Shown: positions 3,663-33,479 of the stretch, piece by piece
Layout: each line of letters opens with the position of its first letter
How positions within the stretch are numbered: position 1 is the stretch's first letter
Virus record (IMG/VR): IMGVR_UViG_2627854066_000005
Location: 1-33,479 of that record
DNA: 33,479 nucleotides
Direction: 5' to 3' (one strand)
Source of the DNA: a virus
Taxonomy: Duplodnaviria > Heunggongvirae > Uroviricota > Caudoviricetes
Notes under the pieces: model-generated
What the model was told of the DNA's origin: nothing
The model's input: the letters and a program-made list of their open reading frames with translations, nothing else
Database searches by the model: none
Position numbers and translations under genes: made by a program

Positions 3663-5865
3663 GACTCGGGGGCGTATTGCCCCCTCGCTAGCCCTGCCAA
3701 TATCTAAGCGCACCGGCGATACTTTCGTTGGTGCTTATCCCTGGAATGCTCCCCGCGCTGCCATTGGCCGTGACAGACCCCTTACACGTGCCGAATTCCG
3801 TCAGGTGCAAGGTGTTTTATACCGGATTGACCGCCTGCCTTTCTTTCTTAAGACGTTGTTTACTTCCCGTTATAACTTCATTCGCCGCACAAAGAGCCCG
3901 CTCGGGGCGCTCTATTTCCTGAAAAACACCTTTGAGCGGAAGCTGTTGCCGCGTCTTGAGCGCGTTAACGAGCTGTGCGGGATGAATGAATCTGCGTCGA
4001 TTGGTTTCTTGTCTGAGCATGACGAATATGCGCGCTTGCCTGATATGAATGACAAAGAGCTGAAAAAATTTGCGGCCATAATTGCCGCGCAGCTCTGGCG
4101 TAAATACGAGGAACTCAGCGACGAATGGGCTGAGGCATTCGGCGGTAAAGAGACCCTTTTCACCGATGAGGCGCAGGTGCACATATATGGTCAGGTGGCT
4201 GGTGTTGCACGCGCGTTCAACTTAACCCCGCTCTACTGGAAAAAATACCGTAAGGGTCAGATGACGATCCGCATGGCGTTTTCCGCTATTTCCCGTCTGA
4301 TAAAAGATGATTGGTGGGTTAACCAGCTCAAGGCGCAGCGTATGCGCTGGCGTGAGGCGCTGCTTATCGCTGCCGGTGAAGTCAACAAAGACCGTTCACC
4401 TTACGCCAGCAAAATGGCGATCCGCGAGGTTCACTCGCGCCGGCTGGCTAATCTCGAATACCTGAAATCCTGTGAGCTGGAAAACAAAGTTACCGGCGAA
4501 CGTATCGACCTCATCAGTAAAGTCATGGGGAGTATTTCAAACCCTGAAATACGCCGTATGGAGCTGATGAATACCATTGCCGGAATTGAACGCTATGCGG
4601 CCAGCGTTGGTGATGTGGGAATGTTTATCACGCTGACCACGCCGTCGAAGTATCACCCGACCCGACAGGTCGGCAAAGGTGACAGCAAAACGGTGCAGCT
4701 CAATCACGGCTGGAACGAAACCGCATTCACCCCTAAAAACGGCCAGCGCTATCTGTGCCGAATCTGGAGCCTGATGCGTACCGCTTTCAAAGATAACGAT
4801 TTGGAAGTGTATGGGATGCGCGTTGTCGAGCCGCACCACGACGGCACGCCACACTGGCATATGATGCTTTTTTGCAAACTCGGTCAGCGTAAAGCTATCA
4901 ACGAAATTATGCGTCGTTATGCCCTCAAAGAGGACGGACACGAAAAGGGCGCGGCAAAACAGCGCTTTGAGTCGCGTCACCTTAATCAGGGGGGCGCGGC
5001 GGGTTATATCGCCAAATACATTGCCAAAAATATCGACGGCTACGCGCTTGACGGTCAGCTCGATCACGATACCGGCAAACCTCTGAAAGATACGGCCGCA
5101 GCCGTAACCGCATGGGCGTCTACATGGCGTATCCCTCAGTTTAAACCGATTGGCCTCCCGACAATGGGCGCTTACCGCGAACTGCGTAAGCTGCCGCGCG
5201 GGGTGAGTATCGCCAGCGAGTTTGACGACCGTGTCGAGGCCGTCCGGGCTGCTGCAGATGAGGGGGAATTTGACCTGTACATCAGCGCGCAGGGTGGGGC
5301 AAACATGCCGCGTGATGCTCAGGTGGTCAGGGTCGCCCGTAAGGTGACGGATGAGGTAAACGAATACGAGGAGGATATCGAGAAAGTGGTCGGTATTTAT
5401 GCCCCTCATCTTGGGGCGAGCCGCGTACATGTAACCCGTACAGCGGAATGGCGCATAGTTCCAAAGGTTTTGGCCGTTGAGCCTTTGACCTTAAAAAGCG
5501 GCGCTGCCGCGCCTCGGAGTCCTGTCAATAACTGTGGAAAGCTCACCGACGGTGATACTCCAGTTATGACACCCACACCGTCTGAGCAAGCCGCAGCGGT
5601 GTTAAATCTGATTGAGCGCGGAGTTATCGGATGGAATGAGCCAGACGTCATGAAGGCGCTTAACGGTGCGTTAAGAGCTGGCATCCCTCGCAAAAATCGC
5701 CAGCAAAGAAGCAATGCGCTACTCAAAACGAGTGAGCAAGCTCCATCAGCCAGGATGACAAAACCAGAAAGGGATCGCGTGGCGAAAATTCGTTTCGATT
5801 TGGCTCAGGAGGGCATTACCCCGGAACGGTGGGAGCTCGAAGCGCTGGTGCGTGGGCAACGGTGA
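3652..5865 (+). CDS. A: Rolling-circle replication initiator A (HUH-type endonuclease)
   Basis: About 737-764 aa. Contains HUH-type motif VEPHHDGTPHWHMMLF and paired active-site Tyr motif GYIAKYIAK. Start uncertain: 3652 (MAVETRG) or 3571, the latter giving 764 aa versus 761 for P2 A. Confidence 0.85.
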   Translation: MAVETRGRIAPSLALPISKRTGDTFVGAYPWNAPRAAIGRDRPLTRAEFRQVQGVLYRIDRLPFFLKTLFTSRYNFIRRTKSPLGALYFLKNTFERKLLPRLERVNELCGMNESASIGFLSEHDEYARLPDMNDKELKKFAAIIAAQLWRKYEELSDEWAEAFGGKETLFTDEAQVHIYGQVAGVARAFNLTPLYWKKYRKGQMTIRMAFSAISRLIKDDWWVNQLKAQRMRWREALLIAAGEVNKDRSPYASKMAIREVHSRRLANLEYLKSCELENKVTGERIDLISKVMGSISNPEIRRMELMNTIAGIERYAASVGDVGMFITLTTPSKYHPTRQVGKGDSKTVQLNHGWNETAFTPKNGQRYLCRIWSLMRTAFKDNDLEVYGMRVVEPHHDGTPHWHMMLFCKLGQRKAINEIMRRYALKEDGHEKGAAKQRFESRHLNQGGAAGYIAKYIAKNIDGYALDGQLDHDTGKPLKDTAAAVTAWASTWRIPQFKPIGLPTMGAYRELRKLPRGVSIASEFDDRVEAVRAAADEGEFDLYISAQGGANMPRDAQVVRVARKVTDEVNEYEEDIEKVVGIYAPHLGASRVHVTRTAEWRIVPKVLAVEPLTLKSGAAAPRSPVNNCGKLTDGDTPVMTPTPSEQAAAVLNLIERGVIGWNEPDVMKALNGALRAGIPRKNRQQRSNALLKTSEQAPSARMTKPERDRVAKIRFDLAQEGITPERWELEALVRGQR

Positions 5866-5941
5866 TTTATGGCGATAAAAAATTCAAATACGCGGCTGCT
5901 GATGAGTGGCCGGGATTCTCAATTCAAGAGGAGTGGAAATA

Positions 5942-6406
5942 ATGAGCAAAATCCATGAGTTAAAAATTGCACCTGAGCATTTTAACGCTGTGATATCTCA
6001 GGAAAAACGTGCTGAATTTCGTCTCAATAACCGCGATTATTCTAGCGGTGATATTCTCGGGTTGCATGAATGGGAACCGGTAAACGGATATACCGGGAAA
6101 CGTGTATCAGTGAGGGTGACATACGTTACTGATTTATCTGAATGGGCGGAAAATTATGTGATGCTGAGTTTTCAGTTAATGATGCCAGATGTCAAGTGCG
6201 GTATGTCCCTAATGAACTGGAAAGAGTTAAGCGAGAAGGGGCTTGTTTTCAGAATTAATCACGAAATTCTACACCCGTTAGGGCTGGCTATTGGATTTGA
6301 AACACTTAACGGCGTTTCGGGTGGGGCTTATGTCGCTTGTGATGGTGTCTGGCAATATTCCGACAAGCTGGTCGCAGATGCTAAAAAAAATGGGTGGTTA
6401 AAATGA
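5942..6406 (+). CDS. Hypothetical protein with ASCH/DUF3850-like N-terminal region (cargo, tin/old position)
   Basis: ATG 5942 with RBS aagaggag. N-terminus ELKIAPEHFNAVISQEKRAEFRLNNRDYSSGDILGLHEWEP resembles DUF3850/ASCH (PUA-like) proteins, from memory only. About 42% GC versus about 55% backbone. Confidence 0.4.
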   Translation: MSKIHELKIAPEHFNAVISQEKRAEFRLNNRDYSSGDILGLHEWEPVNGYTGKRVSVRVTYVTDLSEWAENYVMLSFQLMMPDVKCGMSLMNWKELSEKGLVFRINHEILHPLGLAIGFETLNGVSGGAYVACDGVWQYSDKLVADAKKNGWLK

Positions 6407-6627
6407 GTCATATGCGAATGATGCCAGTGCCGCCCGTACATTCAACGCAAAACATTAAGCTGATGGCCGTCGTGCATCGCCTGCAACAAATTATGATTAA
6501 CGAGAATCTGACCCCTGACGAACTGGTCGGGTGTGCCGGTGTCGTCCGGGATAATCACCGCAAATACAGCGATATCAGCAATCCGAAAATTGAGGCGTTT
6601 CGGCCATCAAATATGGCGAAGCCATAG
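6394..6627 (+). CDS. Small hypothetical protein
   Basis: 77-aa ORF overlapping the upstream stop; weak RBS, no motif recognised. Confidence 0.25.
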   Translation: MVKMSHMRMMPVPPVHSTQNIKLMAVVHRLQQIMINENLTPDELVGCAGVVRDNHRKYSDISNPKIEAFRPSNMAKP

Positions 6628-6909
6628 CAAACGCCGCCGGTGCTGAAACTTGTTTTCAGTGCCAGCGGGGTTGACCAACGAGCCCCGCGAGGCGTTAGCC
6701 TGTCCCGTAGAGATCACCCCCAACCGGAACGATTAAAGCAGGTTTTATTATGCCATTTTCCCACAATTTCCCGGTTTTTTAGCCGTGCATGCAACAGGTG
6801 CATTGTTTTGCATGCGTTGGGGATGCCCGTTCTGGCCGTGCGCCGCCAGAGCTAGCGCGGATCCAGAGTGGTCATGCAACTGCATTAAAACCGACCCATA
6901 AAGCGGGCA

Positions 6910-6928
6910 GGCGAGGCGGGGATAGCAT
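6910..6928. other. Putative cos site (19-nt cohesive end region)
   Basis: GGCGAGGCGGGGATAGCAT differs at 2 positions from the P2 cohesive end GGCGAGGCGGGGAAAGCAC as I recall it. Lies in a GC-rich noncoding stretch between the A side and the Q/P packaging genes, as in P2. Confidence 0.5.
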
Positions 6929-7017
6929 TGCGCGCTGAGGGGTTTTAAATTTCATTTTTTTTAGTATTATCAAAAAGAATAATTCAGAATTATCTCAAAA
7001 AAGGCAAGGGGCACAAT

Positions 7018-8349
7018 ATGGTGATTAATGAAGTTAGACGGATAGGTAGTGGCGGTTTTGGTAATGTTGATTTAGTGCAAGATGTCCTTAGCGGAAAGCA
7101 ATTCGCTAGGAAAACATTTTCTATAAATCAAGCTCAACCGCTGCCTCCTGATTTGGCAGAGAATGTAAAAAAAAGATTTATAAGAGAGGCAAACGTACAG
7201 TATAGACTTACGCATAAAAATATTGTACCTGTCCTTTTTAAAGATCTAAATAGTAACCCTCCATCTTTCCTTATGCCAGTAGCAGCATCTAGCCTTGATA
7301 AAGATATTGCGCAAAGTAGAAACTTGAATGGATTATTTTTAAGAGCAATAATGGATATTTTGTCTGGACTCGAAGAATTGCACACGTTGCAAATTTATCA
7401 TCGTGATCTCAAACCACAAAATGTGCTTAGATTTGATTCAAGTGAAGGTCCATATTACGCTATTAGCGACTTTGGCTTGATGTCAGTAAAAGATACTCAA
7501 ATTTCAGCACTAACCCATACAGGTATGAAAATGGGTTCTGATTACTACACCGCACCTGAAATTGTTTCAGATCTTAGAAAAGCTAGTATTGCTTCAGATA
7601 TTTATTCTTTGGGGTGTATACTGCATGACTTTGTAGGCACGGATGAAAGAATTCCTTGTGGTGAAATTAATAATGATTCGAGCGCATATGCGCATATTTT
7701 ACGGGTTTGTACTCGTAGAGATCCTTCAAGAAGATTTCCAAGTGTTGCAGCATTAAGGGATGCAATTCTTAGTATTGATCCTTCTACAGTAATACATCTC
7801 TCTGCTGAGGTTGGAACATATACTACAGCATTAGATAGTGACGCCGGAATTAATGTTGAAACATGGAGGGAAATAATCAATTTCGTAGAGGATAATATTG
7901 GACAAGAAAACTCCAAGGTGATATTTCAGCGTCTAACTTTAAACAGGATTAATGAGATAATCGCTCATGATACCACGCTAGCTTGTCGTCTTGGTGAAGC
8001 ATATGGTCGTTGGGTTGCGGATGGAGTATTTTCATTCGAACAGTGTGATGGGATTTGCACTCGTCTCGAACAATTTTTACAACTTCACGATTTGAACTGT
8101 AAAGCCGAAATTATTATAGCTATGCTTCTTATGGGAACGTCGCATAATCGTTGGTATGTCGAGAGACGCTTCATGAGCGTGGCAGGGCACGACATGACTC
8201 CAGAACTGGCTAAAAGGCTTGCTTTGGAAATGAGCATACTTGAGGGTAGAATGTGTGCAGCGGTGAGTCATCTCCAAAGATCAATTGGTGCCACACCTGA
8301 TATGCTTCATCCTGAACTTTTCGCAATGATACAAAGAGTATGCCATTGA
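7018..8349 (+). CDS. Hanks-type (eukaryotic-like) Ser/Thr protein kinase with about 170-aa C-terminal domain of unknown function
   Basis: Gly-rich loop IGSGGFGNV (7042-7068); Lys in FARKTF; catalytic loop HRDLKPQN (HRD at 7399-7407); DFG (7468-7476); YTAPE. RBS aaggcaagggg upstream; AT-rich promoter-like region 6950-7017. About 35-38% GC. Confidence 0.8.
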   Translation: MVINEVRRIGSGGFGNVDLVQDVLSGKQFARKTFSINQAQPLPPDLAENVKKRFIREANVQYRLTHKNIVPVLFKDLNSNPPSFLMPVAASSLDKDIAQSRNLNGLFLRAIMDILSGLEELHTLQIYHRDLKPQNVLRFDSSEGPYYAISDFGLMSVKDTQISALTHTGMKMGSDYYTAPEIVSDLRKASIASDIYSLGCILHDFVGTDERIPCGEINNDSSAYAHILRVCTRRDPSRRFPSVAALRDAILSIDPSTVIHLSAEVGTYTTALDSDAGINVETWREIINFVEDNIGQENSKVIFQRLTLNRINEIIAHDTTLACRLGEAYGRWVADGVFSFEQCDGICTRLEQFLQLHDLNCKAEIIIAMLLMGTSHNRWYVERRFMSVAGHDMTPELAKRLALEMSILEGRMCAAVSHLQRSIGATPDMLHPELFAMIQRVCH

Positions 8350-9050
8350 TTAATAAATTTGCTTACACATCTCCGGGACCTAGAAGCCACAACCAAGACT
8401 CTATCTTGGTTGAGATTTTACCCAGCGCTGATTTGTTATGTGGCGTTGCGGATGGTGTCGGCGGGAATTTGGGGGGAGAAACAGCCTCTCAATTAGCACT
8501 GGACATTATTGCTGCGGCCATGCGTTCGGATAGTAGCATCTCTCTTCTCGAAGCCATAACCCGAGCTGATGAAGCGATCAAAGATGCTGCTCAGAAAGAT
8601 GGAAAATTGGCTGGAATGGCAAGTACTGTGACTGTAACAAAGCTTATCGGGAATAAATTGATAGGAGCCAATTGTGGAGATTCTCGGACTTATCTATTAA
8701 GAGGAAGTGGCGTCAAACAACTTTCCTATGATCACAGTGAAGTAGCTCGTCTACTACGTGAAGGTAAGCTGACGAAAGAGACTGCAGTTGATTACCCTCG
8801 TAAGAACATTCTTGATAGTGCCCTTGGTGCACACAAGCCTCTACAAGTCCATGAATTTGAATGTAATTTACAGATAGGTGATAGAATAGCTTTGCTATCT
8901 GACGGGGTTTCGTCAGTTGTGAGCAAAAAAGATTTCCGAGATCTTTCAGTGAAATATAATTCGTTAAATGAGTATGGTGCTAGTGTAATAGAGCTTGTTG
9001 AGAGTAGAGAGACTAGGGATAATTATTCATTGATTATTTTTGAAATTTAG
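8340..9050 (+). CDS. PP2C-family Ser/Thr protein phosphatase
   Basis: PP2C motifs GVADGVGG (8451-8465), CGDSRTYLL (GDSR at 8676-8687), LLSDGVS. ATG overlaps the kinase 3' end by 10 nt, suggesting translational coupling. Confidence 0.75.
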   Translation: MPLINKFAYTSPGPRSHNQDSILVEILPSADLLCGVADGVGGNLGGETASQLALDIIAAAMRSDSSISLLEAITRADEAIKDAAQKDGKLAGMASTVTVTKLIGNKLIGANCGDSRTYLLRGSGVKQLSYDHSEVARLLREGKLTKETAVDYPRKNILDSALGAHKPLQVHEFECNLQIGDRIALLSDGVSSVVSKKDFRDLSVKYNSLNEYGASVIELVESRETRDNYSLIIFEI

Positions 9051-9061
9051 TTTTGTAATAT

Positions 9062-9095
9062 AGGTGCGTTATTTAAAATGACGCACCTTTTCTCA
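9062..9095 (+). terminator. Intrinsic terminator after the kinase-phosphatase operon
   Basis: Stem aggtgcgt / acgcacct (8 bp) with 11-nt loop, followed by a T-rich tract. Lies between the convergent phosphatase and Q genes. Confidence 0.5.
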
Positions 9096-9102
9096 TTTTG
9101 TT

Positions 9103-10110
9103 TTAAATAGAATATTTTTCAAATTGTATTACATCTTCTTGAAGCCAGTCGTTAATCTCTTTGAAACGCTCCTGCAATGGCGTCAGCTCGTTACGCACAA
9201 ACACCCGCGCCACCTTCTCAACGTCACCCATTGAGCCGATGTTTTCCGGCTTGCCGCCCATCAGCTGAAACGGCACGCGGTGCGCATCGAGCAGGTCAGC
9301 GGCACTGACCTTTTTGATGTTGAAAAAATCATCCTTCGTGGCGACTTCACTCAATGGCACAATCTTGATCCCGTCTGGCTTTCCGTTGGGCGCGTAGAAA
9401 AACAGGTTCTTAAAATTCCCCAGCCCTTTTGAGTCGCGCATCGCGTTACGGAGCGATTCAACGTCGGTGCTACTCTGTGCCGCGTCGGTGACATACATGA
9501 TATACCCCGCGTGCGCCCCGTTCTGGTAATACTTACGACGAAATAACGTGGCGGATTCATTCAGCCAGGCTGAATTGAGTGCGCTCAGGTATTCCGGCAT
9601 CCCGTAAAGTTCCTGATTGATATCGGGCTCAAGCAGATGACACACCGAGCCGGGCGCGAACGGGTGCGGCTGGGTGTAGCTCGATACGTACCAGTAAACG
9701 CCATCCTCGACACCCCGGCGGGTGTATTTGGCCGGGGAGGTTTCCAGTTTTAATAGCTGGCCGGTGACGCTCATGCGCTTCTCAAGATAGCCGTTGGCAA
9801 AGACCAGATAATCGAGCACAAGGCGGCTGAAATCCTGACGCGACAGCAACGGGTGCGGAATGTAGGTGCTCGCCAGAATGTTACGCTTCACGTAAATCGG
9901 CGAGCTGTGGTGAACGGCGGCGCGCAGGCTTTTTGCCAGTCCCGAGAAATTGACCGGCGGCTCGTACCATTTCCCGTTATTGATGCACTCGACATAGTCG
10001 AGGATGTCGCGGCGATCCAGAACGGGGGACGGCTCACCAAAGGTAAACGCCTCCATTTTTTGCGGTGCGCTGGCGGTCATTGTGGCGGGTTTCTTCTGTC
10101 GTTTTTTCAT
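9103..10110 (-). CDS. Q: Portal (capsid portal protein Q)
   Basis: Start MKKRQKK at 10110 lies immediately after the P stop (TAAGATG coupling); an alternative in-frame start is at 10170. P2 gene order Q-P on the minus strand next to cos. Confidence 0.85.
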   Translation of the reverse strand: MKKRQKKPATMTASAPQKMEAFTFGEPSPVLDRRDILDYVECINNGKWYEPPVNFSGLAKSLRAAVHHSSPIYVKRNILASTYIPHPLLSRQDFSRLVLDYLVFANGYLEKRMSVTGQLLKLETSPAKYTRRGVEDGVYWYVSSYTQPHPFAPGSVCHLLEPDINQELYGMPEYLSALNSAWLNESATLFRRKYYQNGAHAGYIMYVTDAAQSSTDVESLRNAMRDSKGLGNFKNLFFYAPNGKPDGIKIVPLSEVATKDDFFNIKKVSAADLLDAHRVPFQLMGGKPENIGSMGDVEKVARVFVRNELTPLQERFKEINDWLQEDVIQFEKYSI

Positions 10111-17856: not shown

Positions 17857-18906
17857 ATGTCTAACGATGATAAAACATTGAATTTATTCCCCATAGATTA
17901 TCCATTTGAGACTTTATGTTCTAGGATGAAGTCCAATCCCATCAAACTAAAACTGAATCCAGACTTTCAAAGAAAGTACAAATGGGATCAGGACGGATGG
18001 CTGCGATCTTCAAAATTCATTGAATCTTGTTTAATGCGTATTCCTCTTCCATCTTGTTACTTTGCAGAAGATGATAGCGGCAATCATATTGTAATTGATG
18101 GTGTTCAGCGATTAACCACAATACAGAAATTTTTTGATGACGAGTTCGCTTTGGAGGGAATGACTACATTTAAAGAGCTTGAAGGGAAAAAGTTTTCTGA
18201 ATTAGGATCTCTACGTTCAGAGTTAGAGTCGACAACAATAAGATGCATTGTTCTAAGAAAAGAAAATCCCAAAAAATTAATAAGAGAGATATTTTCTAGA
18301 CTCAATCAGGGGGCAGTTAAACTTTCTGACCAAGAAATAAGACATGCGTTATATCCGGGAGGGTTTGATGAATTATTAGAAGAGTTAGGTAATATTGATG
18401 CCATTAAAAATTTTGGTTTGGCGGAAACAACTACAGTAAAAAGAGATAGTCGTGAGCCAGACGAACAAGTTTTGCGTTTTTTTGCATTTTATGAAGATAA
18501 CTTTTTTGATTACTTTGATAGCTCCTTGAAAGAATTCTTGGATGATCATATGGAAAAATTTTCAGACTTAAAAGATGATGAACTGAATATTATGAGGGAG
18601 AGATTCAAAACATCATTATCTAAGTGTGAAAAAATATTTGGTGAAGATGTATTTACAAACCCTACAGTTAGGAGAAAACGTAAAGGGTTAGTTCATTATG
18701 ACATTTTAATGCCTACAATTGGCAAGTTAAATGATGATATTGTAAATGAAAAGTCCGAACAAATACGGAATGCTTGGTTTACTCTTTGTTCAAGTGCTGA
18801 GTTCAAAAAAACTTTATCAGGTGGGCTACAGAATAAGAGTTCGGTGATGAAGCGTAGGGCTAGTTGGGTGGCACTTCTTAAGGAAGTTATTGATGGAAAA
18901 TACTGA
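17857..18906 (+). CDS. DUF262 (ParB-like / GmrSD N-terminal-like) domain protein
   Basis: 349 aa; N-terminal region with FQRKYKW and IDGVQRL (the DGQQR-type motif of DUF262); helical C-terminal region, no HNH/DUF1524 seen. About 33% GC; inserted between S and V, which are adjacent in P2. Confidence 0.65.
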   Translation: MSNDDKTLNLFPIDYPFETLCSRMKSNPIKLKLNPDFQRKYKWDQDGWLRSSKFIESCLMRIPLPSCYFAEDDSGNHIVIDGVQRLTTIQKFFDDEFALEGMTTFKELEGKKFSELGSLRSELESTTIRCIVLRKENPKKLIREIFSRLNQGAVKLSDQEIRHALYPGGFDELLEELGNIDAIKNFGLAETTTVKRDSREPDEQVLRFFAFYEDNFFDYFDSSLKEFLDDHMEKFSDLKDDELNIMRERFKTSLSKCEKIFGEDVFTNPTVRRKRKGLVHYDILMPTIGKLNDDIVNEKSEQIRNAWFTLCSSAEFKKTLSGGLQNKSSVMKRRASWVALLKEVIDGKY

Positions 18907-19471
18907 ATACTATGATGGATATCGTTCATTATTTTTATCCTTAAAAGAAATTATTAAGGAGACGGAGCAACAGGCTATCCTTGAGGAAAATGAATTCTTC
19001 AATAAGAACATTAATTTTTTTGTTAAATCGTATCTTATTACACTCTGCACTTATTTAGAGTCGTATTTGACTGAGGTTGCAACATGGCACTGCGATACCA
19101 TCAATCGCAGGCTTAAAGCAGCCTGCTTGCCACACAATTTTTTGCTTTGGCGAGTCAAAAAAGATGTTAAAGATAAGGAGTTGAAATATATAGATGCTGA
19201 TTTAAAGGTTGAGAAAAGTGAGGTGTCGGATAGCCTGTCTGGTAATCCTTACAAGACGATTAAGGCATTTTCTTATTTGGGTGTTAATCTTTTGAATTCG
19301 GCGGAATTTAATGCGAATAAGGATGTTGTGAATGCAGTGGTTGTAAAGAGAAATAACATTATTCATCATAACGACAATGCAAATGATATTAGTCTCACTG
19401 ACGTAAGTGGTTATGTAGATCTGTTTGTATCCTATATGGCCGCGATAGATAATATGGTTTGTGGAAAATAA
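18890..19471 (+). CDS. Hypothetical partner protein, possible HEPN-like (R-x4-H) motif
   Basis: 193 aa; overlaps the upstream gene by 17 nt (same operon); KRNNIIHHND fits the R-x4-H pattern of HEPN RNases, tentative. AT-rich. Confidence 0.45.
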   Translation: MMENTEYYDGYRSLFLSLKEIIKETEQQAILEENEFFNKNINFFVKSYLITLCTYLESYLTEVATWHCDTINRRLKAACLPHNFLLWRVKKDVKDKELKYIDADLKVEKSEVSDSLSGNPYKTIKAFSYLGVNLLNSAEFNANKDVVNAVVVKRNNIIHHNDNANDISLTDVSGYVDLFVSYMAAIDNMVCGK

Positions 19472-31636: not shown

Positions 31637-33479
31637 GTGCGCCGGGCATGGCGCGTAGCGCCGTGACTGGCGCTGTTCTTCAACTGTGGTGGCTGAAGAA
31701 CGACTAAGAGGTGAAAGTCCTCCACACACCCGGTGAGGGGAAGTGTTAGCGGAAGGCAAGGGTGTTCATCGCGAGGTGAAATCTGAAGGAAGCCGGATGC
31801 AAAATGCTGGCCTGACGAACAGGAAGCGGTTAAGGCGGCGCAGCGGGGTAAGGTGGCATACATCACCAAAGCCCGATACTCACACGGAACGCTGTAACGT
31901 AGAGCCGACAGGCATAAGCAGGAAAGTCGCGCGAATTACCCCGGGAGAACTGCCGTCCTGCCAGTGTGCTACCGGCGTCGTAAGGTGCCGGGATGGGGCG
32001 GCAGAAGTCAGCCGACGCCGTAGTAGTGCTGCAAAACCGGCAGCATGAAGGGCCGAACATGATTAACCGTGATTAGGACATCCGAACCCGATGATGATTA
32101 ATGAAGCACAAGCGCAGGCAACTGCGGCCAGCGGCAGAGGAGACGGACGGTATCCGTCAGGGCTGCATGATGGCGCTGAAATCAGCACGGCGGCGGGTGG
32201 GCAAACGAAAGCGGAAGTGCCGCTGACGATGGAAGCGGTGATAACGAGAGAAAACCTGATGCTGGCTTATCAGCGCGTGGTGGAAAACAAAGGCGCGGCG
32301 GGGGTGGATAACCTCAGCGTGGCGGAGTTGAAACCGTGGCTGAAGAAGAACTGGCGCAGTGTCAGGCAGGCATTGATTGACGGAAACTACCAGCCGCGGG
32401 CAATACGCCGGATGGATATCCCGAAGCCGGATGGCGGCGTGAGAACCTTAGGCATCCCGACGGTGGTGGACAGGCTTATCCAGCAGGCGATTGCGCAGCA
32501 GTTAAGCGCCATCGTGGACAAAAGCTTCTCAGACTCCAGCTACGGCTTCCGGCCGGGGCGCAACGCATGGCAGGCGGTGCAACAGGCACAGCGTTACATA
32601 CGGGGCGGCAAACGGTGGGTGGTGGATATGGATCTGGAGAAGTTCATTGACCGGGTGGATCACAGACTCCTGATGACGCGTCTGGCCAGAACGATAAAGG
32701 ACAGGCGGGTGCTGAGACTGATACGCCGCTACCTGAAAGCGGAAATAGTCCGGGACGGGCAAAGGGAGAAACGGCAGGAGGGCATGCCGCAGGGCGGCCC
32801 GCTGTCGCCGTTACTGTCGAACATCCTGCTGGATGAACTGGATAAAGAACTGGAGCGTCGTTGACACAGCTTCTGCCGCTACGCAGACGACTGCAACATC
32901 AACGTAAGCAGCCGGAAAGCGGGCGACCATCTGCTGAAGAACATCAGGGCGTTCGTGGAGAACAAAATGAAACTGAAGGTGAATGAGAAGAAGAGCGCGG
33001 TGGCGCGCCCGTGGGAGCGGAAGTTCCTCGGGTACAGTGTGACATGGCACAAACAGGCGAAGCTGAAAATAGCCCTGACGAGCGTGAACAGGCTGAAGGA
33101 GAAAGTCCGCAGTCTGACCACGGGAAACCGGAGCAAATCAGTGAAAGCGACAATCAATGCCCTGACGCCAGTGCTGCGTGGATGGATAAGCTACTTCAGG
33201 CTGACGGAAGTCAGAGGAGTGCAGGAAGAGCTGGACGGCTGGATCAAACGGAAACTGCGGTGCCTGTTGTGGCGGCAGTGGAAGAGGCCGGGAACCCGGA
33301 CGAAGAACCTGCAAAGAGCGGGGCTGAGTAAGGACAGGGCGATGATCTCAGCGTACAACAACCACGGGCCATGGTGGAACTCAGGGTCAAGCCATATGAA
33401 TCAGGCGATAAAGAATGCGTGGTTCAGCAGGCAGGGTCTGATATCACTGCTGGAACAGCAGAGGCAGTTCCAGTGTTAA
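31637..33479 (+). mobile_element. Group II intron, 5' portion (domains I-IV with intron-encoded protein); 3' end beyond the window
   Basis: 5' GTGCG at 31637; about 590 nt of structured GC-rich RNA-like sequence before the RT ORF; the ORF has the YADD motif and the maturase domain-X motif LRGWISYF. Insertion just after a terminator is typical of class C (IIC) introns. Confidence 0.7.
32229..33479 (+). pseudogene. Group II intron reverse transcriptase/maturase, interrupted by in-frame TGA at 32862-32864
   Basis: ORFs 32091-32864 and 32955-33479 are in the same frame. Reading through the TGA gives ...LDKELERR*HSFCRYADDCNI..., continuous through the RT YADD motif (32880-32891). Likely start MEAVITRENLMLAYQRV at 32229. 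Natural stop TAA at 33477-33479. Confidence 0.7.

What the first reader, a model, noticed from the sequence alone, without database searches (positions are those of the whole stretch)
6950..9095. Ser/Thr kinase + PP2C phosphatase operon between cos and the portal gene
The sequence shows a 443-aa protein with a complete Hanks-kinase motif set (GxGxxG, catalytic Lys, HRDLKPQN, DFG, APE) plus an about 170-aa C-terminal domain I cannot assign, and a 236-aa PP2C phosphatase (DGVGG, GDSR, SDGV) whose start overlaps the kinase stop by 10 nt. The operon is much more AT-rich than the phage backbone, has its own AT-rich upstream region and terminator, and sits where P2 has only a short cos-to-Q spacer. 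P2-like phages are known to carry anti-phage systems at variable loci near cos, and kinase-based abortive infection is known (for example staphylococcal Stk2). I infer an anti-phage or superinfection-exclusion module in which the phosphatase restrains the kinase until a trigger is sensed by the C-terminal domain. I do not recognise this pairing as a named defence system.
Basis: partly seen in the sequence, partly recalled or inferred. Interest (0 to 1): 0.85.

Follow-up and report, generated by a model that had tools for sequence, protein, structure and literature searches.

The report
Kinase–phosphatase cargo in P2 prophage hotspot
A P2-like prophage of E. coli carries, right next to its DNA-packaging site, a mobile two-gene cassette (a protein kinase with a unique helical-repeat tail plus its opposing phosphatase) that is most likely an untested relative-in-kind of the known kinase/phosphatase anti-phage systems.

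Summary
Window 7018-8349 encodes a 443-aa Hanks-type Ser/Thr kinase. Window 8340-9050 encodes a 236-aa PP2C phosphatase that overlaps it by 10 nt. The pair is AT-rich, sits between the cos core (6910-6928) and the portal gene, and ends in a terminator-like hairpin.

All catalytic residues of both enzymes are invariant in homologues. The kinase tail (aa 256-443) is a confidently modelled ARM/HEAT-like alpha-solenoid. That domain occurs almost only in this roughly 440-aa kinase family.

The kinase-then-PP2C pair moves as a unit. It lies beside Hachiman, beside a type I restriction-modification system, in other prophages and in a Bacteroidota conjugative element. Only 1 of 5,426 complete E. coli genomes has it.

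Rousset 2022 already lists this exact gene arrangement in Table S5A, untested.

The closest validated system is KKP (phosphatase plus two kinases, Guo 2024). This pair fails KKP's defining features and shares only generic domain similarity with it.

My best reading is a toxin/antitoxin-like phospho-switch defence module: a new variant of a known kind. Defence itself is inferred from context, not shown. Interest is moderate.

The parts
6910..6928 (.). P2-type cos core (19-nt cohesive-end sequence); it marks the left boundary of the insertion site
   Evidence: It has 2 mismatches to the P2 cos 19-mer, with 0.01 matches expected by chance. Homology to other E. coli P2-like prophages stops at about 6937.
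6939..7017 (+). AT-rich leader that travels with the cassette; the promoter is presumed but not demonstrated; TATTAT at 6965-6970, Shine-Dalgarno AAGGGG at about 7003-7008
   Evidence: The sequence is. The leader is conserved in the 93%-identical copy L180 and in the Klebsiella copy L002, whose homology begins at 6939. The scan found no consensus promoter.
7018..7782 (+). Hanks-type Ser/Thr kinase domain (aa 1-255) of the 443-aa protein
7483..7536 (+). Activation loop (aa 156-173) with a conserved Thr-x-Thr motif (T166-H167-T168; family consensus LTQTGM); it is the likely autophosphorylation site and PP2C target
   Evidence: T166 is invariant and T168 is at least 90% conserved. This is the only segment with pLDDT below 50 in the model. 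The resemblance to the PknB TQT site comes from my own knowledge.
7783..8349 (+). C-terminal all-alpha domain (aa 256-443, 11 helices) with an ARM/HEAT-like solenoid fold; aa 256-335 are hypervariable and aa 336-443 carry the invariant motif GTSHNRWYVER; the stop codon is included
8340..9050 (+). PP2C-type Ser/Thr phosphatase (236 aa); its start overlaps the kinase stop by 10 nt
   Evidence: Pfam PP2C_2 scores 4.6e-11. NCBIfam Stp1/IreP scores 6.5e-49 but falls below its cutoff. The metal-binding motifs NxD, ADGVG, GDxR, SDG and D228 are invariant in 24 partner phosphatases.
9062..9098 (+). Terminator-like hairpin (12 pairs) plus T-run, ending 5 nt before the convergent portal gene stop
   Evidence: The hairpin was found by the scan and the sequence is. 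Its first arm is conserved in L180 and L002.
9103..10110 (-). Portal protein gene (gpQ homologue); right boundary of the hotspot (context, not part of the module)
   Evidence: RefSeq annotation of E. coli KV7.

Best explanation
This is a self-contained, horizontally mobile two-gene phospho-switch. It is carried as accessory cargo at the cos-proximal defence hotspot of a P2-like prophage, and it most likely protects the lysogen against other phages in a toxin/antitoxin-like, abortive or growth-arresting manner.

Shown:
- The kinase is an intact Hanks-type kinase with a Thr-x-Thr activation loop.
- It is fused to a family-specific ARM/HEAT-like alpha-solenoid.
- The PP2C is catalytically intact and its gene overlaps the kinase gene (translational coupling is inferred from the overlap).
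- The pair is co-inherited across phyla and sits in mobile-element cargo sites and defence islands.

Inferred, by analogy with KKP and with PknB/PstP:
- In the uninfected lysogen the PP2C keeps the kinase activation loop, and any substrates, dephosphorylated.
- Infection tips the balance. Either a phage protein binds the hypervariable first half of the solenoid and activates the kinase, or a phage protein inhibits the PP2C, as T4 Gp59 does in KKP.
- The kinase then autophosphorylates and phosphorylates many host or phage proteins needed for growth and phage replication, which blocks the burst.
For: - Location: the cassette lies between the cos core and the portal gene. This is the hotspot shown to hold defence systems.
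- Rarity and composition: it occurs in 1 of 5,426 complete E. coli genomes. Its GC is 0.40 against 0.53 for the flanks, and it is lower than the flanks in every host examined.
- Co-inheritance: the kinase-then-PP2C order is kept in all 12 distinct contexts of relatives with at least 49% kinase identity. In nearly all of them the stop and start overlap or abut. Kinase and PP2C identities fall together: 97/93, 89/77, 77/67, 55/43 and 50/37 %.
- Neighbours of the pair:
  - Hachiman HamA/HamB, E 1e-149 and 0
  - type I R-M
  - DUF3427/NOV_C
  - DUF2326/SMEK
  - a helicase-PLD protein and IS elements
  - ArdA/RadC in a CTnDOT-like ICE
  - an int/tail-fibre accessory (moron) site of a lambdoid prophage
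  - P2-like tail genes in Pseudomonas
- Mobility: a 93%-identical DNA copy lies in a different island.
- Enzymes: catalytic residues are invariant in both.
- Kinase relatives: the kinase domain's best defence-library hits are mad6, PD-T4-6, MkoA and Stk2.
- C-domain: it has a hypervariable segment with 29% mean pairwise identity, against 60% for the kinase domain.
- Fusion: one natural ORF joins kinase, C-domain and PP2C in a single polypeptide.
- Precedent: validated kinase/PP2C defence exists in P2, P4 and Pf prophages (KKP).
Against: - There is no experimental evidence for this family. No paper mentions the proteins. Rousset 2022 listed the arrangement but did not test it.
- The PP2C matches no PADLOC model, and no PADLOC kinase model covers the C-domain.
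- No consensus promoter was found, so expression in the lysogen is unknown. AT-rich cargo may be H-NS-silenced.
- Guilt by association is equally compatible with an addiction module or an anti-defence role. In the ICE the pair sits beside the anti-restriction gene ardA.
- The second half of the C-domain carries an invariant polar motif across phyla. That fits a conserved partner better than a fast-evolving phage ligand.
- Distant relatives (31-34% identity) occur without a PP2C, so the phosphatase is not obligatory for every member.
Confidence: 0.55

Rival explanations
1. It is an addiction or stabilisation module. The kinase (toxin) and PP2C (antitoxin) mainly ensure retention of the prophage, ICE or island by post-segregational growth arrest, with no dedicated anti-phage role.
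For: The pair has a toxin/antitoxin-like two-gene architecture with overlapping genes. It is always on mobile or variable DNA: prophages, an ICE and islands. [quoted passage not shown] About a quarter of P2 hotspots carry plasmid-partition genes, so maintenance functions do occur at this locus.
Against: An enzymatic antitoxin that reverses a modification need not be unstable. Nothing here suggests a labile PP2C. Several copies sit in chromosomal defence islands next to Hachiman or R-M, where stabilisation is a less obvious benefit. Toxin/antitoxin function and defence are not mutually exclusive.
Confidence: 0.15
2. It is a prophage or host regulatory module. The pair tunes lysogeny, induction or host physiology by reversible phosphorylation of a nucleoid or regulatory protein, as KKP does with MvaU for Pf phages.
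For: KKP has exactly such a second role. Related short kinase plus PP2C pairs in lambdoid phages lie in the late region, after Q or the lysis genes, which suggests phage-cycle-linked expression.
Against: The same cassette works outside any prophage, for example in the Klebsiella, Mucilaginibacter and Sinorhizobium islands and in an ICE. It is present in only 1 of 5,426 E. coli genomes, although more than 3,000 carry P2-like portal-region homology. It is therefore not part of P2 regulation.
Confidence: 0.12
3. It is a counter-defence or host-takeover factor that benefits the carrying element during its own transfer or lytic growth. It would phosphorylate host defence or housekeeping proteins, as T7 Gp0.7 does (from my own knowledge).
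For: In the Bacteroidota ICE the pair sits directly after ardA and radC, typical anti-restriction and establishment genes. In virions of this phage the cassette would lie at the very end of the linear DNA, next to cos.
Against: A takeover kinase would not need a co-transcribed antagonist phosphatase. Chromosomal copies lie beside Hachiman and R-M with no mobile-element transfer genes nearby. The cassette has its own leader and terminator and is oriented against the late portal operon.
Confidence: 0.1
4. It is an ordinary cellular Ser/Thr signalling pair (Stk1/Stp1- or PknB/PstP-like) that happens to lie in a prophage.
For: The best NCBIfam hits are the Stk1 PASTA kinase family (5.5e-25) and the Stp1/IreP phosphatase (6.5e-49). 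The top structural matches of the kinase domain are PpkA and PknB.
Against: Both scores are far below the family cutoffs: 88 against 450 bits and 166 against 230 bits. The kinase has no PASTA domain: the Stk1 model matches only its kinase part and the tail is an all-alpha solenoid. The distribution is sporadic and mobile. GC is lower than the flanks in every host.
Confidence: 0.03

Closest known systems
KKP (PfpC-PfkB-PfkA kinase-kinase-phosphatase module; Guo et al. 2024, PMC11341870)
   Same: Both combine Hanks-type Ser/Thr kinase(s) with a PP2C phosphatase, carried as accessory cargo of temperate phages. KKP also occurs in P2 prophages and P4 satellites, and the genomic-neighbourhood figure legend of Guo 2024 lists gpA and portal domains among KKP's neighbours. 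[quoted passage not shown]
   Different: - KKP has three genes in the order PP2C, kinase-FHA, kinase-CSD, and needs both kinases for toxicity.
- Here there is one kinase, the order is reversed (kinase then PP2C), and there is neither FHA nor CSD but a unique alpha-solenoid.
- The PP2C here is 236 aa, without the long C-terminal extension of the 387-aa PfpC-like protein.
- Similarity to a KKP-type trio from a P4 hotspot is only generic. The kinases give 23% over 171 aa and 33% over 107 aa. The PP2C gives 31% over 85 aa, E 4e-4.
PD-T4-6 (single-gene Ser/Thr kinase defence; Vassallo et al. 2022)
   Same: Both are E. coli accessory Hanks-type kinases of about 440 aa (PD-T4-6 is 436 aa by its coordinates). 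Many PADLOC PD-T4-6 models hit the kinase domain (best 6.7e-32).
   Different: PD-T4-6 was cloned and is active as a single gene. Here a PP2C is co-inherited. None of the PD-T4-6 profiles that hit the kinase extends into the C-terminal domain; matches end near aa 200-250.
Stk2 (staphylococcal abortive-infection kinase; Depardieu et al. 2016)
   Same: Both are eukaryote-like Ser/Thr kinases. Stk2 kills or arrests the infected cell by broad phosphorylation after sensing a phage protein (from my own knowledge; cited). The PADLOC Stk2 model hits the kinase at 1.1e-22.
   Different: The match covers only the kinase core (aa 47-246 against profile positions 160-347 of 500). Stk2 is a single gene, has a different non-kinase region and comes from Firmicutes.
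TerY-P triad (vWA TerY + PP2C + Ser/Thr kinase; Gao et al. 2020)
   Same: Both have a PP2C and a Ser/Thr kinase encoded together in a defence context (from my own knowledge).
   Different: No vWA/TerY gene is present in the locus. The PP2C hits no PADLOC model at all.
PknB/PstP and Stk1/Stp1 housekeeping pairs
   Different: There is no PASTA or other extracellular sensor domain. Scores are below the family cutoffs. The pair is mobile, sporadic and AT-rich.

Membership tests
KKP (Guo 2024) | Three adjacent genes in the order PP2C, kinase, kinase | tested here: not met
   There is only one kinase ORF, and it precedes the PP2C. No second kinase lies between gpA and the portal gene. KKP is defined.
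KKP (Guo 2024) | PfkA-like kinase fused to a cold-shock domain (GFI/GFA motif) | tested here: not met
   Pfam finds only Pkinase/PK_Tyr_Ser-Thr, and no CSD. The tail is all-alpha, whereas a CSD is a beta-barrel.
KKP (Guo 2024) | PfkB-like kinase fused to an FHA domain | tested here: not met
   No FHA hit and no second kinase.
KKP (Guo 2024) | Sequence relatedness to KKP components beyond the generic domains | tested here: not met
   BLASTP against a kinase/kinase/PP2C trio from a P4 hotspot gives 23% over 171 aa, 33% over 107 aa and, for the PP2C, 31% over 85 aa.
KKP (Guo 2024) | Kinase toxicity neutralised by the phosphatase; anti-phage activity | not testable with these tools
   This needs expression and plaque assays.
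PD-T4-6 (Vassallo 2022; PADLOC models) | Stand-alone single-gene kinase system | tested here: not met
   The kinase is co-inherited with an overlapping PP2C in all close relatives. PD-T4-6 was cloned as a single CDS.
PD-T4-6 (Vassallo 2022; PADLOC models) | Full-length match to a PD-T4-6 profile | tested here: not met
   The best profiles align only aa 6-250 of 443 and at most about 66% of the profile. The same holds for the solitary relatives L016 and L017.
Stk2 | Full-length match to the Stk2 profile, including its N-terminal region | tested here: not met
   Only aa 47-246 match profile positions 160-347 of 500.
TerY-P triad | vWA (TerY) gene adjacent to the PP2C and kinase | tested here: not met
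   No such ORF exists between 5900 and 9100. The PP2C has no PADLOC hit.
Hanks-type (eukaryote-like) Ser/Thr protein kinases, Pfam PF00069 | Score above the gathering threshold and a complete catalytic motif set (G-loop, VAIK Lys, alphaC Glu, HRD, DFG, APE) | tested here: met
PP2C/PPM phosphatases, Pfam PF13672 | Score above the gathering threshold and conserved metal-binding Asp motifs | tested here: met
   The score is 43.1 bits against 24. D20, D38, D113, D188 and D228 are invariant in 24 partner phosphatases.
Stk1 PASTA kinase / Stp1 phosphatase equivalogs (NCBIfam) | Score above the curated equivalog cutoff | tested here: not met
   The kinase scores 88.4 against 450 bits and the phosphatase 166.5 against 230 bits.
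P2 cos-proximal defence hotspot cargo (Rousset 2022) | Variable genes located between replication gene A and portal gene Q, next to cos, in a P2-like prophage | tested here: met
   gpA ends at 5865, cos lies at 6910-6928 and the portal gene ends at 9103. The identical arrangement, with the same protein accessions, is listed in Table S5A of that paper.

The most novel reading that the evidence does not exclude
The pair defines an unrecognised, minimal two-gene immune system, distinct from KKP. In this reading the kinase's own ARM/HEAT-like solenoid, through its hypervariable first half, directly recognises a phage protein and switches the kinase on. The PP2C sets the threshold and resets the switch.

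Together with the short kinase plus PP2C pairs of lambdoid phages (Flotzy, phiES15 gp21/22 and 16 IMG/VR prophage loci), it would reveal a broad, overlooked superfamily of kinase-then-PP2C modules in temperate phages. These modules would shuttle between cos-adjacent P2/P4 hotspots, ICEs and defence islands.
Probability: 0.3. Interest if true: 0.7.

Novelty: new variant of a known kind. Interest (0 to 1): 0.5.

Why it matters
Kinase-based immunity is one of the less understood branches of bacterial defence. Only Stk2, PD-T4-6 and KKP have any experimental support, and how the trigger is sensed is clear for none of them.

This family offers a compact system of two genes in 2.1 kb, with its own leader and terminator. 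Its domain structure is clean: a kinase, a confidently modelled helical-repeat domain with a hypervariable patch, and a PP2C.

It is found from Enterobacteria to Bacteroidota. A native E. coli copy sits in a hotspot where cloning and phage challenge are routine. It is therefore a tractable case for two questions. Is a kinase/phosphatase balance a general immune switch? Does the sensor lie in the kinase tail or in the phosphatase?

If it turns out not to defend, it is still a widespread mobile phospho-signalling cassette of unknown purpose.

Tried and rejected
- The genome-contig scan with the full-length kinase alignment was wasted. All 80 loci kept (L097-L176) are unrelated kinases from Myxococcota, Actinomycetota and others. 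A pattern from the C-domain (GTSHNRWYVER) should have been used.
- The fold search of the full-length model returned only kinase domains, so the C-domain had to be modelled separately.
- afdb50 was not available.
- BFVD gave no significant match to the C-domain (best E 0.13).
- The PDB sequence search with the profile returned only kinase domains.
- PADLOC gave nothing for the PP2C at E up to 0.1 and nothing for the DUF3850 neighbour.
- The promoter scan found no site upstream of the kinase.
- Repeats around the cassette are short and unconvincing. I see no target-site duplication or inverted terminal repeats.
- Rfam found no RNA family in 6600-9300.
- Literature searches found nothing beyond KKP, either for the protein accessions or for a two-gene kinase/PP2C defence.
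- I considered and rejected filing the kinase as PD-T4-6, Stk2, TerY-P or KKP (see the membership test).
Full report
WHAT IS THERE

The window is a P2-like prophage of E. coli KV7 (pig faeces, Denmark), integrated beside yegR.
- The first is a 443-aa protein (7018-8349). It carries IGSGGFG, FARKTF, YHRDLKPQN, SDFG and TAPE.
- The second is a 236-aa protein (8340-9050). It carries DGVGG, GDSR and SDGV.
- The two ORFs overlap by 10 nt.

Pfam places them in Pkinase (1e-28, aa 5-222) and PP2C_2 (4.6e-11). It assigns nothing to kinase aa ~256-443. GC is 0.37-0.45 here against 0.55-0.61 in the structural genes.

The P2-type cos core is at 6910-6928 (2 mismatches). The convergent portal gene ends at 9103. 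So the cassette fills the cos-to-Q spacer. That spacer is about 160 bp in phage pro483 and about 170 bp in most sampled E. coli P2-like prophages. A few of them carry other small cargo there.

A 12-pair hairpin with a T-run follows the PP2C (9062-9098). No consensus promoter was detected upstream. The AT-rich leader (6939-7017) is nevertheless conserved in two other copies of the cassette.

THE PROTEINS

In an alignment of 44 full-length homologues (47-89% identical), every Hanks catalytic residue is invariant. The activation loop carries an invariant Thr166 and a nearly invariant Thr168. The family consensus there is LTQTGM. From my own knowledge, this is the same Thr-x-Thr arrangement that PknB autophosphorylates and PstP dephosphorylates.

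Modelled alone, the tail (aa 256-443) is an 11-helix bundle with pLDDT 96.8 and pTM 0.92.
- It has no significant match among viral predicted structures. The PDB sequence search matched only the kinase domain.
- An exhaustive HMMER search of 1.84 billion representative proteins found the domain in only 200 clusters. Almost all are kinases of about 440 aa with the domain at residues ~270-440, or fragments of them. The domain is therefore specific to this kinase family.
- One 510-aa ORF has the C-terminal part of the kinase, the C-domain and a PP2C in a single polypeptide. This is a possible Rosetta-stone fusion, but a frameshift artefact cannot be excluded.
- Conservation is uneven. Mean pairwise identity is 60% for the kinase domain, only 29% for aa 256-335 and 49% for aa 336-443. 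The last segment holds the invariant motif GTSHNRWYVER and the invariant C343, D344, H418 and S422.

The PP2C keeps all its metal-binding motifs in 24 partner sequences.

THE PAIR IS A MOBILE UNIT FOUND WHERE DEFENCE GENES LIVE

Only 1 of 5,426 complete E. coli genomes carries it. More than 3,000 of them carry P2-like portal-region homology. In every context I examined with at least 49% kinase identity, the PP2C follows the kinase, usually with overlapping stop and start codons. In one metagenome copy the PP2C is degraded.

The contexts differ completely:
- beside a complete Hachiman system in Klebsiella;
- beside P2-like tail genes and a DUF4011 helicase in Pseudomonas donghuensis;
- in a CTnDOT-like conjugative element of Bacteroidota, next to ardA and radC;
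- in a Vibrio cholerae island with a WYL regulator and a family-B polymerase;
- between the integrase and tail-fibre genes of a Morganella lambdoid prophage;
- next to a DUF3427/NOV_C gene in Sinorhizobium;
- next to a type I R-M system in Mucilaginibacter;
- in an enterobacterial island with DUF2971, DUF2326 and SMEK genes;
- next to IS elements and a helicase-PLD protein.

Kinase and PP2C identities to the window decline together. The cassette has a lower GC than its flanks in every host.

The 93%-identical DNA copy (L180) shares homology from 6875 to 9075. That stretch includes a degenerate cos-like sequence. The Klebsiella copy shares only 6939-9048. The unit that moves is therefore leader plus two genes plus terminator. 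At least one transfer seems to have carried cos-adjacent DNA with it.

RELATIVES WITH OTHER ARCHITECTURES

In IMG/VR, 16 prophage loci carry a shorter kinase of about 255 aa, without the C-domain. It is followed, with a 4-nt overlap in most loci, by a PP2C of about 245 aa. Two cultured lambdoid phages have the same pair in the late region. Flotzy has it after the lysis genes. phiES15 has it as gp21/gp22, after Q. Two distant relatives that keep the C-domain (31-34% identity) have no detectable PP2C. One of them (L016) sits alone between lysis and tail genes of a high-GC prophage.

COMPARISON WITH KNOWN SYSTEMS

The P2 region between gpA and gpQ, next to cos, is the defence hotspot described by Rousset 2022. 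Their Table S5A lists this very arrangement: 'DUF3850/ASCH + hypothetical + Pkinase + PP2C', WP_029392163/162/161/160, from another E. coli assembly. It is one of 1,650 arrangements. It was not among the systems they cloned. No paper in the library mentions these proteins.

The closest validated system is KKP (Guo 2024).
- It consists of a PP2C followed by an FHA-kinase and a CSD-kinase.
- It is a tripartite toxin/antitoxin system found in P2, P4, Mu-like and Pf prophages.
- It protects against T4 and T-odd phages.
- It is triggered when T4 Gp59 binds and inhibits the phosphatase.

The present pair fails each structural criterion of KKP: the number of kinases, the gene order, and the FHA and CSD domains. 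Against a KKP-type trio from a P4 hotspot it shows only generic domain similarity.

The PADLOC models of PD-T4-6, mad6, MkoA and Stk2 hit the kinase core only. The PP2C hits nothing. PD-T4-6 is a single-gene system. TerY-P needs a vWA gene, which is absent here. The housekeeping Stk1/Stp1 equivalog scores are far below their cutoffs.

I therefore file this as a new variant of a known kind, not as a member of any named family.

MECHANISM: BEST READING AND ITS STATUS

Shown:
- a competent kinase and a competent PP2C;
- overlapping genes and co-inheritance;
- a family-specific alpha-solenoid with a hypervariable patch;
- location in mobile-element cargo sites and defence islands.

Inferred:
- The PP2C keeps the Thr-x-Thr activation loop, and the substrates, dephosphorylated in uninfected cells.
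- Infection shifts the balance. A phage protein either binds the variable face of the solenoid or inhibits the PP2C, as in KKP.
- The activated kinase then phosphorylates many host and phage proteins and stops growth and phage production.

I put this at about 0.55. The invariant polar motif in the second half of the solenoid argues for a conserved partner as well, perhaps the PP2C or the kinase domain itself.

The rival readings are an addiction module (0.15), a lysogeny or host regulator (0.12), a counter-defence or takeover factor (0.10) and ordinary signalling (0.03). Only the last is effectively excluded.

VERDICT

The finding is real and correctly described. The defence interpretation is reasonable but unproven. 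Interest is moderate (0.5). The family is uncharacterised, compact and widespread, and it sits in an experimentally convenient place. A kinase/phosphatase cargo in a P2 hotspot would not surprise a specialist.

Noticed in passing
window 17857-19471: A second AT-rich island (GC 0.33-0.41) lies between the virion-morphogenesis (S) and baseplate (V) genes. It holds a 349-aa DUF262 protein (PADLOC NsnA 6.6e-80, PD-T4-2_A 9.5e-43) and an overlapping gene of about 192 aa that RefSeq annotates as HEPN-domain and that has no PADLOC hit. The domain pair matches the validated two-gene system PD-T4-2 ('DUF262, HEPN') of Vassallo 2022.
   Followed up: partly
window 5906-6627: On the gpA side of cos there are a DUF3850/ASCH-domain protein (166 aa) and an overlapping 77-aa ORF. 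These are also hotspot cargo. The DUF3850 protein has no PADLOC match. The same DUF3850/ASCH gene appears in other P2 hotspot arrangements in Rousset Table S5A.
   Followed up: partly
window 31765-33479: A group II intron sits at the prophage right end, after the ogr-like regulator. Rfam hits are D1-D4-3 (135.9 bits) and D1-D4-1 (70.5 bits). RefSeq annotates its reverse transcriptase as a pseudogene with an internal stop, and the window ends inside it.
   Followed up: partly
L180 5860-8059 (also L181, L182): A 93%-identical DNA copy of the cassette lies in a non-prophage enterobacterial island with DUF2971, DUF2326 and SMEK_N genes. The homology starts upstream of the cassette and includes a decayed cos-like sequence (AGACGAAACGGCGATAGCA). 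This suggests the cassette was exchanged together with cos-adjacent DNA, as expected for shuttling between P2 and P4 hotspots.
   Followed up: partly
L018-L033; L094 4562-6066 (phage Flotzy); L095 4977-6496 (phage phiES15 gp21/gp22): A related but shorter pair recurs in lambdoid prophages and in two cultured phages, in the late region after Q or after the lysis genes. It consists of a kinase of about 255 aa without any C-terminal domain, then a PP2C of about 245 aa, overlapping by 4 nt in most loci. In Flotzy the PP2C is annotated only as 'hypothetical protein'.
   Followed up: partly
L016 9992-11275: A 427-aa relative (34% identical, with the same C-terminal domain) is a low-GC solitary gene, without a PP2C. 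It sits between lysis and tail genes of a high-GC prophage. L017 also lacks a detectable PP2C.
   Followed up: partly
protein P0127 (metagenomic, 510 aa): A single ORF contains the end of a kinase domain (aa 3-40), the family-specific C-domain (aa 108-270) and a PP2C (aa 287-492). It is either a natural fusion of the two genes or a frameshift artefact.
   Followed up: no
window 8044-8346 (kinase aa 343-442): Conserved Cys and His residues are spread over the second half of the C-domain. C343 and H418 are invariant. H376, C413, H431 and C442 are at least 90% conserved.
   Followed up: no
E. coli genome hits H49, H54, H56, H82: A minority of E. coli P2-like prophages also carry 0.6-0.9 kb of other cargo between cos and the portal gene (hypothetical proteins, and a DUF4145 protein). 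The Q side of cos is therefore an occasionally used sub-site of the hotspot.
   Followed up: no
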